From positions 4,757,604-4,821,603 of the forward strand of contig NC_057718.1 in NCBI RefSeq assembly GCF_004010195.1: a stretch of DNA of 64,000 bases, in the 5' to 3' direction. This document shows, in pieces, positions 43,268 through 48,500 of this stretch. The notes below the pieces were generated by a model. The model searched no databases. It was not told where the DNA came from and saw only the letters and a program-made list of their open reading frames with translations. A program made the position numbers and the translations under genes. How positions within the stretch are numbered: position 1 is the stretch's first letter; each line of letters begins with the position of its first letter. The stretch is from Chiloscyllium plagiosum. Lineage: Eukaryota.

Positions 43268-44975
43268 GATTCTGGGTAATGCAAGATGGGGGATGGGAAA
43301 AATTTCTGGCTGTAACAGGCTGCTCCTTTTTAAGGTATTTTAGGCGTTGGAGGTGATTTCCTTAAATTCCAGGAGCAGCAATTACTGTTTTATATGCTGT
43401 TGCATTGTTTTGGAACTTTGGGAAAGAAAAGTCAAAACAACAGCATTTTTAAAAGGGAGAGGAACAGACAAAGGAAGCACATGGTGAGATCAGTGCAGGA
43501 GAGAGAGAGAGAGAGAAACCCACACTGCTCCCTGACACAGGAGTGAACCTGCACAGTTACTGCCTTTGCTGTTTGAATTCATGTATCACTGGACATCGGA
43601 CTGTGTCTGGGAAAATTAACAAACAATGAAACTCACAACTGATCTTGGAAGAACCTGTTTGGGAGGGGTCACAGCACAGAAACAAATAAGTGGATATTTT
43701 AAGTGTAGCCTTACAGTAAGTCTCTAGTAGTGAGTAGAGTGGGTTATTTCTTGATTATATGTTATATTGAGCTGGGTCTCTTGATTAAACTTTAAAATAT
43801 AAGTCATAAGTATTAAGTTAGCCTGGAGCAGTGTTTTGTAGAGGAATAAGATAGAGCTATTTTCTATGTCTATAGATTGGAAGAAGCAAAAATGGCCCTT
43901 AATAGAGTGATATGCTCTTCTTGTCGGATGTGGGAGCTTAGGGAGAATTTACGGGTTACTGAGGATTATATCCGAAATAAATGTCATTGGTTGCAAATCC
44001 TATCAGATCGAATGGATCAGTTGGAGAGACACTTAGAGGCAATGAGGAATTTACAAGAGCAAGGGGATGTGATGGATGGCAGTTATGGGAAGGGAGAAAA
44101 GTTGCAGATACAGTCACATTGATGGGTTGACTCGAGTAATGGCAAGAGAGGTAGGCAGGTAGTGCAGGAGTCTTCTGTGGCTACCCCCATTTCAAACAAG
44201 TATGCTGTTTTGCAAAATGTAGGGGGTGATAGATTTTCAGGCAAACATAACACGAACAGCCAAGTTTCTGGTATCGAGACAGGCTCTAACGCAATGAGAA
44301 GTACGTCAGGTTCCAAGAGATCAATTGTATTAGGTAACTCTCTAGTCTGAGGCACAGATACACATTTCTGTGGCCAGCAGTGAAAAATCAGATCTGTGTG
44401 TTGCCTCCTTGGTGCCAGGATCAAGGATATCTCAGAGAGGGTGCAGAATGTTCTCAAGGGAGAGAGGGGCCAGCAGGAGGTCATTGTACACGTTGGAACC
44501 AATGACTAAGGAAGGGGAAAGGATTCTGAAGGGAGAGTATAGCAAGGTAGGCTTGAATTTAAAAAGGAGGTCTTCGAGAATAGTAATATCTGGATTACTC
44601 CTGATGCTGTGAACTACTGAGGATAGAAATAGGAGGATAGAGCAGATGAATACGTGGATGAAGAGCTGGTGCATGGGAAAAGGATTCACATTTTTGGATA
44701 ATTGGAATCTCTTCTGGGGTAGAAGTGACCTGTACAAGAAGGACGGATTGCACCCGAATTGGAATGGGACTAACATACTGGCAGGGAGATTTGCTAGAGC
44801 TGCTCAGGAGGATTTAATCTAGTAAAGTGGGGATGGGAGGAGGTGGTTGGACACAAGGAGATAGTGAGGAAAGAAATCAATCCAAGACTGGTACAGTTGA
44901 GAAAGAAGCGAGTCAAAGTTGAAACTTTATTGCTGGAACAGCACAGCAGGTCAGGCAGCATCCAGGGAACAGGAG

Positions 44976-45011
44976 ATTCGACGTTTCGGGCACAGGCCCT
45001 TCTTCAGGAAT
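44976..45011 (-). ncRNA. Minimal type-I hammerhead ribozyme motif (family A)
   Basis: ATTC-CTGAAGA-A-GGGC(ctgt)GCCC-GAAAC-GTC/GAAT. Confidence 0.75.
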
Positions 45012-45465
45012 GAGCAGAGAGTGTTCAGCAGGAGAAGATAAAAGGTAGGGAGGAGGGACTTGGAGGAGGGGCGTTGGAAATGTGATAGGTGGAAAGAGGT
45101 CAAGGTGAGGGTGATAGGTCGGAGTAGGATGGAGGCGGAGAGGTCAAGAAGAAGACTGCAGGTCAGGAAGGCGGTGCCGGGCTGGAGGGATTCGGCTGAG
45201 ACAAGGTGGGGGGAGGGGGGATGAAGAAACTAGTGAAGTCCAAGTTCATCCCCTGTGGTTGGAGGGTTCCCAGTCGGAAGATAAGACGCTCCTCCTCCGA
45301 CCGTCGCGTTGTTGTGGTTTGGCGGTGGATGAGTCCAATGACCTGCATATCCTCGGTGGAGTGGGAGGGGGAGTTGAAATGCTGTGCTACAGGGTGGTTG
45401 GGTTGGTTCGTCCGGGTGGCCCAGAGGTGCTCTCTGAATCCTCTCCTGCTGAACACTCTCTGCTC

Positions 45466-45501
45466 ATTCCTGAAGAAGGGCCTGTGCCCGAAACGTCGAA
45501 T
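45466..45501 (+). ncRNA. Minimal type-I hammerhead ribozyme motif (family A)
   Basis: ATTC-CTGAAGA-A-GGGC(ctgt)GCCC-GAAAC-GTC/GAAT: intact core, 4-bp stem I, GUC cleavage triplet. Confidence 0.75.
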
Positions 45502-48500
45502 CTCCTGTTCCCTGGATGCTGCCTGACCTGCTGTGCTGTTCCAGCAATAAAGTTTCAACTTTGATTTTATTCCAGCATCTGCAGACCTCACTTTCTCCTC
45601 AAAGAAGCGAGTCAGTCTGGGAAGGCAGGAACAAAGCAGAGAACAAGGTAGGACTGATAAATTAAACTGCATTTATTTCAATGCAAGAGGCCGAACAGGG
45701 AAGGCAGATGAACTCATGGTATGGTTAGGAATATGGGACTGGGATATCATAGCAATTCCAGAAACATGGCTCAGGAATGGGCAGGACTGGCAGCTTAATG
45801 TTCCAGGATACAAATGCTACAGGAAGGATAGAAAGGGAGGCAAGAGAGGAGGGGAAGTGACGTTTTTGATAAGGGATAACATTACAGCTGTGCTGAGGGA
45901 GGATATTCCTGGAAATACATCCAGGGAAGTTATTTGGGTGGAACTGAGAAATAAGAAAGGGATGATCACCTTATTGGGATTGTATTACAGACCCCCTAAT
46001 AGTCAGAGAGAAATTGAGCAACAAATTTGTAAGGAGATCTCTGCTATCTGTAAGAATAATAGGGTGGTTATGGTAGGGGATTTTAACTTTCCAAACATAG
46101 TCTGGGACTGCCATAGTGTTAAGGGTTTAGATGGAGAGGAATTTGTTAAGTGTGTACAAGACATGTACCTACCAGAGAAGGTACAAAACTTGACCTGCTC
46201 ATGGGAAATAAGGCAGGGCAGGTGACTGAGGTGTCAGTGGGGGAGCACTTTGGGGCCAGGGACAATAATTCTATTAGTTTTAAAATAGTGATGGAAAAGG
46301 ATAGACCAGATCTAAAAGTTGAAGTTCTAAATTGGAGGAAGGCTAATTTTGATGGTATTAGGCAAGAACTTTCAAAAGCTGATTGGGGGCAAATGTTTGC
46401 AGGTAAAGAGACAGCTGGAAAATGGGACACAGAAAATAAGAAAATAAGAAGGCACTAGAGAAATGTAGATATTTTCAGCAAGCAGTATTTGGGTAGAGAT
46501 TCATCCGTTTCCAATCAGGAAATCGCAGGAGGAGCTCCTGATGTGTTCTCCGTGGTCCTATTCTGCTGCCGCCCAAATTAATTTCCAGCTCAATACATGA
46601 TTTTCCACTCCAATTCCTCAACATTGCAATGTCATCCATTATCATGTTAAAAATAGCATAGGGAACTGAGAGACATGAGCACTCATTGCTTATGAGATTC
46701 GTGTGAAAGGGGAATTGAAAGTCATGATTTGGAGATGCTGGTGTTGGACTGGGGTGTACAAAGTTAAAAATCACACCACACCAGGTTATAGTCCAACAGG
46801 TTTAATTGGAAGCACTAGCTTTCGGAGCGCTGCTCCTTCAGCAGTTGGTTGTGAATTGAAAGGTATGTGTTCAACAGAATGTGACCAAGGATTATGTTGT
46901 GAAAAAGGTTTAAGGTATAGGGAAGATTTGCTTAGAGTTTTTAAAGTTTAGAAATGAAATGATAGGTTAGATAAAAGTTTTTTTTCTACTGATGAGGCAG
47001 GCTAGGACCAGGAAATGTCATCTTCCAATCAGAATTAAGCTGTTCAGGAAAGTGATCACAAAACATTTCCTTATGAAGAGTGTGAAACCCATTCCACACA
47101 AGAAGAAAGAGAGTCAAACAGTGTGACCCTGGAAAAGTACAGCAGGTCAGGCAGCATCCGAGGAGCATAAGATGCTAAATCATTAAGTATTCTCTGAGAA
47201 TGGTTGAGTTTTGCTAAACAAGAGTATGAATGGATAAGGCATCAACTCGGCACCACACCCTTGACCTGTCTATCTTCCTTCCCATCTATCCACTCTACCT
47301 TCTTCTTTGACCTATCTCCATCACCCACCACCTCCATCTACCTATCACATTTCCAGGTACCTACCCCCCAGCCCCACACCCCTCCCATTTATCTCTCAGC
47401 CCCCTTGGGCTTCCCCCTCATTCCTGACTCAAAAGGTTGATTCTCCTGCTCCTCGGATGCTGCCTGACCGGCTGTGCTTTTCCAGCAACACACTCTTTGA
47501 TTCTGAATGGATAAGGAGTCAAGGCAAGAGGATAGTATCAAGGTACAGATCAGTCATCAACTCAGTGAATGATGGGACAGCTTCGAAGGGCTGAAGAGGG
47601 AGTAAACTACTATAGATGGTGGGACTCTGTGCTGAAAACAACAAATGCTGAAGATCACAGAGGGTCAGGCAGCATCCATGGAGAGAGAGCAAGCTAACGT
47701 TTTGAGATTAGATGACTCTTCATCAGAGTTGATGTGAAGTGTGGAGGAGGCAGCATTTCTGCAATAGTGTATGGGTAGAATGTTGGAGGAGAAAGGGTTT
47801 GACTCAAATGTCTGAATCTACTTCCAGTTCCACAATTAACTCATAAATTGCATAAGCAACCTAAAAGGACTTTGACTGTTCCTTATCTTTCAAACAGTGA
47901 TCAGTGGGAGACAGAAAACAGGAGACTGCAGATGCAGCAAGGGTTTGTGAAGAACTGCTGATATTGTGAGCTGGTGCTTGAAAGATCTCTGGGCCACCCC
48001 ACAGCCCTGTGTTACTTAGACACTTTCAGAGGTCACACAACATAATGTTATAGTCTAACAAGTGTATTCACTTCACCTGATGAAGGAGCAGTGCTCTGAC
48101 AGCTTGTGATTTCAAATAAACTTTTGGACTGTAACCTGATAGGGTGTGACTTCTGACTTTGTCCATCCCAGTCCAACAGCGGCACCTCCACATCATGATT
48201 TAGACATAATATAGAGATGCAAATAACCTTTCAACAATTTGGAATATCCAAGTGTGGTGCTCATAGGTGGAATTTAATGCAGAGTTTTGAAACTTTTGAA
48301 AGTTTCCAGGGTTTGTACAATGTTTCCTTGGTATAAAGTGAAACAAACTGCAATTGTGCAGTTTTTCATGATCTCAGGAAGGTGATTAATAGCGAACTAA
48401 ATCTCAATATTGTATGAGAAGAGTGAAGAAAGAGGTTTGCAGAATCTGTTAGTCTAAGGTGCAAATTATATGGAGACTGTTGGTGATTATAAATTTACAT

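What the first reader, a model, noticed from the sequence alone, without database searches (positions are those of the whole stretch)
44916..45600. Intact minimal hammerhead ribozymes in both pLTRs of a young Penelope insertion
Seen: two identical motifs on opposite strands (44976-45011 minus, 45466-45501 plus). Each has stem I AUUC/GAAU, core CUGAAGA, one extra A, stem II GGGC/GCCC, GAAA, then C-GUC. Stem III has no loop and is the palindrome ACGU, so it can only form between two copies. Knowledge: Penelope-like elements carry minimal type-I hammerheads in their pLTRs that work as dimers, and an extra nucleotide after A9 is a known natural variant. Inference: here the copies are inverted, so a read-through transcript carries one sense ribozyme base-paired to its antisense. 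Cleavage would need a partner in trans or a tandem master copy.
Basis: partly seen in the sequence, partly recalled or inferred. Interest (0 to 1): 0.7.

Follow-up and report, generated by a model that had tools for sequence, protein, structure and literature searches.

The report
Truncated Penelope-like element, inverted hammerhead motifs
This is an ordinary, recently inserted and truncated copy of a Penelope-like retrotransposon whose two inverted end pieces each carry the small hammerhead ribozyme motif already known from this class of elements.

Summary
Identical 36-nt minimal type-I hammerhead motifs lie at 45466-45501 (+) and 44976-45011 (-), inside inverted arms that match at 126 of 127 positions. 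A perfect 14-bp target-site duplication flanks the whole insert. The insert is a 5'-truncated Penelope-like element (PLE) that reads on the minus strand. In order it holds a 36-nt PLE "tail", an inverted copy of the 3' end, the C-terminal half of the GIY-YIG endonuclease, the 3'UTR and the 3' pLTR piece. It sits inside a LINE. The family is very young and very abundant: 87,506 exact core matches in the 3.56-Gb genome against 0 for the reversed control, plus 16,849 from families with a longer stem II. Stem II covaries within and between families; stem I does not. In a read-through RNA of either strand, every core base pairs with the opposite arm, so this copy should not cleave itself. Minimal hammerheads in pLTRs, the extra base after A9, the palindromic ACGU, inverted pairs, the one-sided tail and cleavage as dimers are all published. 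No catalysis was tested, and insertion ends and RNA reads show no trace of cleavage. Verdict: real, correctly read, ordinary.

The parts
44902..44915 (.). Left copy of the target-site duplication AAAGAAGCGAGTCA
   Evidence: family D5, 14/14 identical to 45601-45614. Its last 3 bases (TCA) also match the start of the tail on the other strand, giving a 3-nt microhomology at the junction.
44916..45039 (-). 3'-terminal pLTR piece of the element (sense arm, without tail). It holds the hammerhead motif and an AATAAA at 44926-44931.
   Evidence: inverted repeat I1; this end stops at the 'no-tail' position, as in 14 of 29 other copies. One search gives the AATAAA coordinates.
44976..45011 (-). Minimal type-I hammerhead motif, sense on the minus strand (core 44980-45007)
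   Evidence: 0 mismatches; identical to the plus-strand copy.
45040..45162 (-). 3' untranslated region of the element
   Evidence: It lies between the stop of the endonuclease frame and the arm, and is contiguous with the arm in other copies.
45163..45437 (-). C-terminal half of the GIY-YIG endonuclease ORF (..REHLW..PVAQHFN..EERLIFRLGTLQPQGMN..stop). The 5' truncation point is at 45437.
   Evidence: Longer copies give Pfam GIY-YIG at E=3.6e-4, 21.2 bits against a cut-off of 22.6. Motifs were read.
45438..45564 (+). Inverted 5'-truncated copy of the element's 3' end (antisense to the ORF; its own sense strand is plus)
   Evidence: I1; (L031 is this window).
45466..45501 (+). Minimal type-I hammerhead motif, sense on the plus strand; predicted cut after C 45497
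45565..45600 (+). PLE 'tail': a 36-nt extension present on this arm only
   Evidence: arm+tail matches to position 163; the tail is on exactly one arm in 17 of 17 assessable inverted pairs. Literature.
45601..45614 (.). Right copy of the target-site duplication
   Evidence: D5.
45615..46225 (+). Host sequence: a LINE ORF with an AP-type endonuclease domain, into which the element inserted
   Evidence: ORF 45551..46225; Exo_endo_phos 4.2e-09. A contig of run X10 joins 44904 to 45613 with 14 other letters between them, an empty-site-like relative of the LINE (tables 5 and 5c).

Best explanation
The 685-bp insert (44916-45600) is a dead-on-arrival, 5'-truncated copy of a very young, very abundant Penelope-like retrotransposon. 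[quoted passage not shown]

Its two hammerhead motifs belong to two copies of the element's 3'-terminal pLTR segment, laid down in opposite orientation during one integration event.

Shown: both arms are outward-facing 3' ends. One starts at the proximal 3' boundary (no tail) and the other at the distal boundary (with the 36-nt tail).

Inferred: both nicked target strands primed reverse transcription on the element's RNA, one at each of the two known internal start sites, and the two cDNAs were then joined.

In master copies the motif is expected to act as the published PLE minimal hammerhead. Stem III exists only as a 4-bp ACGU duplex between two motifs, so cleavage after GUC needs a second copy, and probably the element's protein. 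At this locus the motifs are passengers. Any read-through RNA locks each sense motif into a ~127-bp duplex with its antisense copy, so self-cleavage is not expected. Catalysis itself was not shown here.
For: Identity and structure:
- Perfect 14-bp target-site duplication and 127-nt arms; a single arm mismatch.
- The endonuclease C-terminus lies on the minus strand.
- Longer copies show RYIDD, CX4CX2C and CCHH cysteines between the GIY-type motif (IIY here) and YIG, then the R/H/E/N residues. Pfam GIY-YIG gives E=3.6e-4. Named Atlas clusters carry HTH_animal, GIY-YIG and RVT_1.

Youth and abundance:
- 40 of 150 scored copies are 100% identical over 90 aa, and all 150 are 98-100% identical.
- 87,506 exact cores with any N7, reversed control 0.

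Tail:
- Among 29 other copies, the sense 3' end lacks the tail in 14, has it in 13, is intermediate in 1 and complex in 1.
- In 17 of 17 assessable inverted pairs exactly one arm has the tail. If each arm carried it independently at p=0.5, the chance would be about 8e-6.

Orientation:
- 11 of the 12 neighbouring places less than 2 kb apart in the first 100 genomic places are (-,+), that is, outward-facing.
- 34 of 55 adjacent arm pairs in the held loci are (-,+).

Motif constraints:
- The core and stem II are 95-100% constant across 112 arms that were not selected through the motif, apart from the CpG-affected sites named below (C11.1 90%, G16.2 81%, C17 90%). Frequent variants fall at N7, in loop II and at CpG sites.
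- A compensated stem II subfamily (GAGC/GCUC) has 378 copies. About 17 would be expected from the single changes: 1,077 and about 1,390 (my count of 46 of the first 100 rows, scaled to 3,029), over 87,506.
- Separate families with a 7-bp stem II show U-A, C-G and U.G at the same pair: 16,849 matches against a control of 295.

Folding:
- The core's minimum-free-energy structure is stem I plus stem II, -7.1 kcal/mol.
- Helix III alone is -3.1 kcal/mol and the arm duplex is -259 kcal/mol. All 28 core bases pair to the other arm in RNA of either strand.

Literature:
- Minimal hammerheads in PLTRs, the extra base between positions 9 and 10.1, the palindromic 15.2-16.2 pair, dual motifs on opposite strands 100-700 bp apart, and dimers with low activity (PMC4209133, whole text up to the first part of Methods).
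- Both target strands are cleaved and extended; two internal RT start sites define the tail; cleavage is protein-assisted (PMC11167929, main text).
- An inverted 5'-truncated copy and a one-sided tail (PMC8557442 and PMC3846280, passages).
Against: No cleavage was tested.

Rfam's hammerhead models give no hit, even at E<=10.

Stem I is only 4 bp and shows no covariation. In about half of the arms the 3' strand reads GAUU (41 T against 46 A at that column), while the 5' strand stays AUUC. That leaves a U.U mismatch.

The flank 3' of the motif (arm positions 78-96) is as conserved as the core. Conservation among these young copies is therefore mostly shared descent, not proof of selection on the ribozyme.

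Only 3 of 109 arms not selected through the motif begin near the cut site, while 27 begin at the 5' edge of the motif. This means templates were mostly uncleaved.

Raw polyA RNA reads show no pile-up of ends at the cut site (table 6: none). This is a weak test, because the library is fragmented single-cell RNA-seq and 362 of the 409 laid reads come only partly from this locus.

Published work found that the hammerhead is dispensable for insertion in vitro and found no RNA-seq ends at the site.

The two-strand priming model is inferred. Self-priming of a single cDNA is the older published explanation.
Confidence: 0.85

Rival explanations
1. The motif is kept in the pLTR mainly for a reason other than RNA self-cleavage. 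It might be a binding or folding site for the element's RT-EN protein, part of the pLTR promoter or 5' end, or useful because its stems are DNA-level palindromes that favour the cDNA self-priming or cDNA-cDNA annealing that builds inverted copies. On this view the hammerhead likeness is real but cleavage is incidental or very rare.
For: Tight foldback junctions fall within or at the edge of the motif. In the tight foldback pairs, the no-tail arm mostly begins at arm positions 28-32 (ATTC/CTGA), and the other arm ends between 27 and 79.

Only 3 of 109 arms start near the cut site.

Stem I is not compensated.

The literature reports low in vitro activity, no effect of hammerhead mutants on insertion in vitro, and no RNA ends at the cut site. 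Palindromes at inverted junctions have been read as self-priming.

TCATTCC at the motif's 5' edge fits an initiator-like sequence. The YYANWYY consensus is recalled, not tested.
Against: The full catalytic core (C3-A9, G12-A14, A15.1/U16.1, H17) is kept across families whose stem II sequences differ and covary. That pattern is what a ribozyme predicts; a generic palindrome or a protein site would not require it. Published PLE hammerheads do cleave as dimers or with protein, and C3/G8 mutants abolish this.
Confidence: 0.25
2. The inverted arm arose by hairpin self-priming (snap-back) of a single cDNA or of an antisense template, not by independent priming on both nicked target strands.
For: Many short copies are near-perfect foldbacks, with gaps of -6 to +20 nt between the arms, and some have palindromic junctions. 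Arkhipova et al. 2013 favour self-priming.
Against: A snap-back copy should reproduce the outer end of its template, so both arms should carry the tail or both should lack it. Yet 17 of 17 assessable pairs are discordant. In this insert the arms are separated by 398 nt of unique sequence, not by a hairpin loop. The Anolis PLE protein cleaves and extends both strands in vitro from two start sites.
Confidence: 0.25
3. The insert is a separate non-autonomous foldback or retrozyme-like element that merely shares the hammerhead, not a truncated autonomous PLE.
For: Short foldback and solo-arm copies with no coding sequence are very common. A 2026 preprint argues that animal retrozymes derive from PLE pLTRs (abstract and passages).
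Against: This copy contains 275 nt of the endonuclease ORF and the 3'UTR, 98-100% identical to the same part of longer RT-EN copies. No tandem head-to-tail array of the motif was seen in the window or the held loci: 10 of the 55 adjacent arm pairs within 1.5 kb are direct (4 ++, 6 --), and those I looked at were separate insertions of unlike subfamilies.
Confidence: 0.03

Closest known systems
Minimal hammerhead motifs (min-HHR) in the pLTRs of metazoan Penelope-like elements (Cervera & de la Pena 2014, PMC4209133)
   Same: A type-I motif with no helix III loop and a palindromic 15.2-16.2 pair. There is one unpaired base between A9 and G10.1, a G10.1-C11.1 pair and a short helix I (4 bp). It occurs in PLE terminal repeats, is massively dispersed as single copies, and forms pairs on opposite strands 100-700 bp apart (here 490 bp start to start).
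   Different: Helix II is 4 bp here, against 7-8 bp in the Schistosoma families; this genome also has 7-bp families. The copy number is far higher: at least 87,506 + 16,849 exact matches, against about 4,000 and 9,000 for the 'remarkable' coelacanth and Xenopus cases in that paper. The descriptors differ, so the figures are not strictly comparable.
PAc (Poseidon of Anolis carolinensis) integration in vitro (Frangieh et al. 2024, PMC11167929)
   Same: An optional 30-40-nt tail defined by two adjacent 3' boundaries. There is a hammerhead near the ORF start; here an ATG at 45516, 18 nt after the cut site, opens a frame through the tail. No sign was found that cleaved RNA is the template.
   Different: The clade differs: this family has the CX4CX2C linker that Penelope/Poseidon lack. 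The target site here is not obviously AT-rich (AAAGAAGCGAGTCA). Nothing was tested biochemically here.
Penelope insert architecture in Adineta vaga and Naiads (Arkhipova et al. 2013, PMC3846280; Craig et al. 2021, PMC8557442)
   Same: High 5' truncation, an inverted 5'-truncated copy at the 5' side, a tail at only one end, variable TSD length (10-15 bp in this window), and capture of unrelated DNA between pLTR pieces (L080).
   Different: This copy has no direct (tandem) pLTR pair. It is only the 3' 522 nt of the element plus the inverted arm and tail.
Dimeric type-I hammerheads of newt and Schistosoma satellite/SINE-like repeats, and animal retrozymes
   Same: An unstable helix III, so activity is expected only when two motifs pair (reviewed in PMC6765202).
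   Different: Those lie in head-to-tail tandem repeats that give circular RNAs. Here the two motifs are inverted, and no tandem array was seen.

Membership tests
Hammerhead ribozyme, minimal type I (PLE min-HHR) | Catalytic core C3 U4 G5 A6 N7 G8 A9 ... G12 A13 A14 ... A15.1/U16.1 ... H17 | tested here: met
   CUGAAGA / GAAA / ACGU / C at 45470-45497 and on the minus strand at 44980-45007.
Hammerhead ribozyme, minimal type I (PLE min-HHR) | Helix II closed by G10.1-C11.1 and supported by covariation | tested here: met
   GGGC/GCCC. The compensated GAGC/GCUC subfamily has 378 copies against about 17 expected. The 7-bp families show U-A, C-G and U.G at one pair.
Hammerhead ribozyme, minimal type I (PLE min-HHR) | Helix I flanking the core and the cut site | tested here: inconclusive
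   AUUC/GAAU gives 4 bp here and forms in the minimum-free-energy structure. In about half of related arms the 3' strand is GAUU with no compensating change.
Hammerhead ribozyme, minimal type I (PLE min-HHR) | One unpaired base between A9 and 10.1; palindromic 15.2-16.2 with no loop III | tested here: met
   The extra A is present in 80 of 80 arms, and ACGU is conserved except for CpG decay. The features are as listed in PMC4209133.
Hammerhead ribozyme, minimal type I (PLE min-HHR) | Site-specific self-cleavage after H17 | not testable with these tools
   RNA reads gave no pile-up of ends at 45497/45498 or 44979/44980 (table 6), but the library cannot detect such ends reliably.
Rfam hammerhead families (covariance models) | Score at or above the family's gathering threshold | tested here: not met
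   No hammerhead hit at gathering score or at E<=10 on 44800-45700. The probable reason is the missing helix III hairpin; that reason is inferred.
Penelope-like element, C-terminal EN+ | Single ORF with an RT followed by a GIY-YIG endonuclease carrying CCHH, with the two Cys between GIY and YIG | tested here: met
   Longer copies read ..RYIDD.. then IIY-C-IR-C-..-YIGETGR..REH..HPVAQH..E..N. Pfam GIY-YIG gives E=3.6e-4, just under the cut-off. Pfam did not score the RT itself, and the RT parts of long copies read N (withheld). The window's copy keeps only the part from REH onward.
Penelope-like element, C-terminal EN+ | pLTR with a hammerhead, an inverted 5'-truncated copy, an optional one-sided 30-40-nt tail, and a TSD of variable length | tested here: met
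   definitions.
Neptune/Nematis-type PLE (as against Penelope/Poseidon) | [quoted passage not shown] | tested here: met
   CNRRRCNTC in L063, L064 and L078; definition from PMC8557442. No RT phylogeny was made, so the clade is not assigned.

The most novel reading that the evidence does not exclude
The strict rule seen here has two parts. Exactly one of the two outward-facing arms carries the tail (17 of 17 pairs). The no-tail arm of short foldbacks mostly begins at the first base of the hammerhead. This would mean that a single RNP primes both nicked target strands on one short RNA, using each of the two internal start sites once. It would also mean that this RNA begins at an initiator-like TCATTCC at the 5' edge of the ribozyme and can end at a poly(A) site that coincides with the proximal start site. 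On this reading, a genome with over 100,000 sequence-intact minimal hammerheads is a natural record of PLE integration intermediates. The hammerhead's palindromic stems would then serve as the place where the two cDNAs join.
Probability: 0.2. Interest if true: 0.45.

Novelty: new member of a known kind. Interest (0 to 1): 0.2.

Why it matters
For annotation, this explains a palindromic 685-bp block inside a LINE, and four hammerhead-like hits in the window, as ordinary PLE debris. Rfam-based scans miss these motifs.

For biology, the host genome holds an unusually large and young set of PLE copies: at least 104,000 sequence-intact minimal hammerhead cores. This set could be mined for how PLEs build inverted ends and tails, which the literature still calls unresolved. 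The single locus has no expected function. At most, a read-through transcript would form a long perfect hairpin.

Tried and rejected
- Rfam scans found no hammerhead family. The weak hits (Pyrobac-1, miRNA and lncRNA models, E 2-10) are chance.
- Pfam on the window's 90-aa endonuclease fragment gave nothing. Only longer copies gave a sub-threshold GIY-YIG hit.
- PDB sequence search with a 578-aa frame gave 0 hits. That frame later proved to contain 274 X from withheld bases.
- The 'open frames' of 1,021-1,047 aa in L077 and L079 are artefacts of N stretches. I did not try to read full-length copies any further, so tandem pLTR-ORF-pLTR masters, and the position of the motif relative to the ORF start, remain unverified.
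- A direct (-,-) pair 2.57 kb apart on contig C1 looked like a full unit. It is in fact a composite insertion enclosing unrelated DNA.
- The double-hammerhead dimer could not be scored with ViennaRNA because it is not nested.
- Sequencing runs: no RNA holder is listed. Run X21 laid 0 reads. Reads from X20 come mostly from other copies. The poly-T loose end before 44917 (26 reads, agreement 0.69) may reflect polyadenylation at the element's end or oligo-dT priming, so it is a lead only.
- Lunse, Weinberg & Breaker (RNA Biol 2017) is not held. It is cited only through PMC6765202.
- A search for Penelope + hammerhead + shark found nothing relevant.
- Earlier findings of this scan: none near this place.
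- Chance origin of the motif was rejected.

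
Full report
**1. Observation**

The plus strand at 45466-45501 reads AUUC CUGAAGA A GGGC CUGU GCCC GAAA C GUC GAAU. The same 28-nt core lies on the minus strand at 44980-45007. Both copies sit in inverted arms 44913-45039 / 45438-45564, which are 127 nt long and 99% complementary with 398 nt between them. The only mismatch is at 45441/45036, 4 nt from the inner end.

A perfect 14-bp direct repeat, AAAGAAGCGAGTCA, flanks the block at 44902-44915 and 45601-45614.

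The relaxed pattern hits the window 4 times, and 0 of 100 shuffles gave any match. The other two hits (6536 +, 51134 -) are short foldback copies with their own target-site duplications.

Rfam reports no hammerhead, either at gathering score or at E<=10.

**2. What the block is**

On the minus strand the interior 45163-45437 reads ..REHLWATRTNQPNHPVAQHFN..EERLIFRLGTLQPQGMN.. and then a stop. A search of the window's own 3.56-Gb genome with this 90-aa piece gave 150 scored places out of 103,906 first-look candidates. All 150 are 98-100% identical, and 40 are 100% identical over all 90 residues; one of those is the window itself.

Longer copies (L063, L064, L078) extend upstream through ..MGPSYACLFVGY..RYIDD.. 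(an RT motif), then CNRRRCNTC, then IIYCIRCSRCGLLYIGETGR. This is the PLE architecture: an RT followed by a C-terminal GIY-YIG endonuclease, with the CCHH cysteines between the GIY-type motif (IIY here) and YIG, plus the CX2-5CxxC linker of the Neptune/Nematis type (definitions from PMC8557442).

Supporting scores are modest. Pfam scores GIY-YIG at E=3.6e-4, with 21.2 bits against a cut-off of 22.6. Named Atlas clusters carry HTH_animal, GIY-YIG and RVT_1. The RT parts of the longest copies read N (withheld), so apparent frames of 578-1,047 aa are partly artefacts. I did not pursue full-length copies further.

The host sequence to the right of the insert is a LINE ORF with an AP-endonuclease domain. 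A contig of run X10 bridges 44904 to 45613 with 14 letters between them, like an empty site in a related LINE copy.

**3. Anatomy on the element's sense (minus) strand**

The parts run in this order:
- tail, reverse-complemented: 45600-45565
- inverted copy of the 3' end: 45564-45438
- endonuclease C-terminus: 45437-45163
- 3'UTR: 45162-45040
- 3' pLTR piece: 45039-44916, with the hammerhead and an AATAAA at 44931-44926

At the 3' junction, 3 nt (TGA) are shared between the target and the next template bases.

**4. How typical this is**

Among the 29 other loci fetched with the endonuclease piece, the sense 3' end stops at arm positions 120-128 (no tail) in 14 loci. It stops at 161-163 (with tail) in 13, at 142 in 1, and is complex in 1. 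This is the published 'optional 30-40-bp tail', which lies between two RT start sites (PMC11167929).

Arm orientation is strongly biased:
- Of the 12 neighbouring places less than 2 kb apart in the first 100 genomic places, 11 are (-,+), that is, outward-facing, and 1 is (+,-).
- Among 55 adjacent arm pairs within 1.5 kb in the held loci and the window, 34 are -+, 11 +-, 4 ++ and 6 --.
- In all 17 -+ pairs where both outer ends could be judged, exactly one arm has the tail. None are tail/tail and none are none/none.

The other 17 -+ pairs had an arm whose BLAST match stopped early (scored 'short'), so they were left out of the tail count.

Craig et al. 2021 and Arkhipova et al. [quoted passage not shown] Locus L080 shows such a capture: one TSD encloses a foldback, 2.4 kb of unrelated DNA and a solo arm.

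**5. The hammerhead as a family feature**

Genome counts of exact patterns are:

| Pattern | Count | Reversed control |
|---|---|---|
| CTGAAGAAGGGC-N4-GCCCGAAACGTC | 65,074 | 0 |
| Same, with any N7 | 87,506 | 0 |
| GGGC..GCTC (G.U at pair 10.2/11.2) | 1,077 | 0 |
| GAGC..GCTC (A-U at that pair) | 378 | 0 |
| All with non-G at 10.2 | 3,029 | 1 |

By my count, 46 of the first 100 rows are GAGC..GCCC. That scales to about 1,390 copies, so independent changes predict about 17 double changes against the 378 seen. The doubles are mostly one context (CUGAUGA with loop UUAU), which makes them a subfamily whose master carried a compensated pair.

A search for longer stem II forms (N14-21) gave 16,849 matches against a control of 295. 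About 89 of the first 100 rows are families of the form U-GUYACCU-loop-RGGKRAY. Their third pair is U-A, C-G or U.G, which is covariation in helix II. The unpaired base is U in these families, not A.

I also examined 112 arms that were not brought in through the motif:
- Core positions are 97-100% constant, except at CpG sites (C11.1, C15.2, G16.2, C17).
- Frequent variants sit at N7 (A 63, T 13, G 2) and in loop II.
- Stem I is not supported. Its 3' strand is A in 46 arms and T in 41 at one position, while the 5' strand stays AUUC.
- The flank at arm positions 78-96 is as constant as the core, so much of the constancy is youth.

**6. Is there a trace of cleavage?**

Of 109 arms not selected through the motif, 47 continue upstream. 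Another 27 begin at positions 26-36 (the 5' edge of the motif), 5 at positions 9-25, 14 inside the motif, 3 at positions 58-66 (the cut is at 60/61) and 13 further 3'. The ends at 26-36 are partly confounded, because subfamily divergence stops BLAST at that point.

Direct reading of 38 motif instances shows about 11 with unrelated sequence immediately before (C)ATTC. Contig joints in run X1 land repeatedly at 45466.

Raw polyA single-cell RNA reads (run X20) laid 409 reads, of which 362 lie only partly on the locus. There is no place where many molecules begin or end (table 6).

So templates seem mostly uncleaved. This agrees with Frangieh et al. 2024, who found that the hammerhead is dispensable for insertion in vitro and that no RNA-seq ends fall at the site. 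It is no proof against cleavage at another stage.

**7. Folding**

- The 36-mer's minimum-free-energy structure is stem I plus stem II, at -7.1 kcal/mol.
- The intermolecular ACGU helix is worth -3.1 kcal/mol.
- The arm-arm duplex is worth -259 kcal/mol.
- In the 685-nt RNA of either strand, all 28 core bases pair with the other arm.

**8. Mechanism, shown and inferred**

Shown:
- one integration event (a single TSD)
- two outward-facing 3' ends
- one tail per inverted pair
- junctions of tight foldbacks in or next to the motif

Inferred: both nicked target strands primed reverse transcription, one at each of the two start sites, and the cDNAs then joined, helped by the self-complementary segments of the motif. 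This rests on the in vitro finding that the Anolis PLE protein cleaves and extends both strands.

The rival is snap-back self-priming. It fits the palindromic junctions but predicts concordant tails, which were not seen (0 of 17).

The function of the motif in master copies is taken from the literature: dimeric, weak, protein-assisted self-cleavage. It was not tested here.

**9. Comparison and novelty**

That includes the extra base after A9, the palindromic 15.2-16.2 pair and motif pairs on opposite strands 100-700 bp apart. The locus is therefore a new member of a known kind.

What stands out is scale. There are at least 104,355 exact core matches (87,506 + 16,849), against about 4,000-9,000 in the cases that paper calls remarkable; the descriptors differ.

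I could not check Repbase or Dfam. My paper searches found no description of this family, but they do not cover subscription journals.

**10. Verdict**

The feature is ordinary and interest is low. The tail-discordance rule, the recurrent 5' end at the first base of the motif, and a possible poly(A) site at the no-tail boundary (table 7) are leads about PLE integration, not results.

Noticed in passing
window 6431-6627: A short foldback PLE copy of a different subfamily (loop II UUAU, stem I 3' strand GAUU). It has an antisense arm with tail joined directly to a sense arm without tail, a junction inside the hammerhead, and a TSD of about 14-15 bp (ttcccactacggtgg).
   Followed up: partly
window 51071-51286: A second short foldback copy of the same young subfamily as the finding. 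One arm is 100% identical to the finding's arm, the junction is nearly palindromic (cccttcttc|ctgaagaaggg), and the TSD is about 12 bp.
   Followed up: partly
window 47129-47682: Three old, diverged arm fragments (84-91% identity) of the same repeat, without a complete hammerhead core.
   Followed up: no
L080 (G000:C1:1859800-1865200), minus-strand positions 1301-4307: One TSD (ttaaaatgcattt) encloses a foldback PLE copy, about 2.4 kb of unrelated DNA (itself holding an older PLE fragment) and a solo arm. The solo arm starts at the same inner boundary (tctcctgctgaac) as the finding's arm. This looks like the capture of foreign sequence between pLTR pieces described for rotifer Penelope.
   Followed up: partly
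own genome: A second group of minimal hammerhead families has a 7-bp stem II and an unpaired U: 16,849 matches against a control of 295. They also occur as close (-,+) pairs and show covariation between families.
   Followed up: partly
window 44917 (run X20, table 7): 26 raw RNA reads carry a poly-T run just outside the element's no-tail end, about 10 nt beyond AATAAA on the minus strand. This could be a poly(A) site coinciding with the proximal 3' boundary, or an oligo-dT priming artefact.
   Followed up: no
window 45565-45572: This copy's tail has 4 extra bases compared with most family reads (4 letters 'left out' at 45566/45567 in 5-6 of 12 reads; table 4).
   Followed up: no
window 45460-45472: TCATTCC at the 5' edge of the hammerhead resembles an initiator element (consensus recalled, not tested). 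Many solo arms and contig joints begin at its A (45466).
   Followed up: partly
L061, L063, L077-L079: The RT-coding parts of the longest PLE copies read N (withheld). This inflates 'open frame' lengths in the genome search tables.
   Followed up: yes
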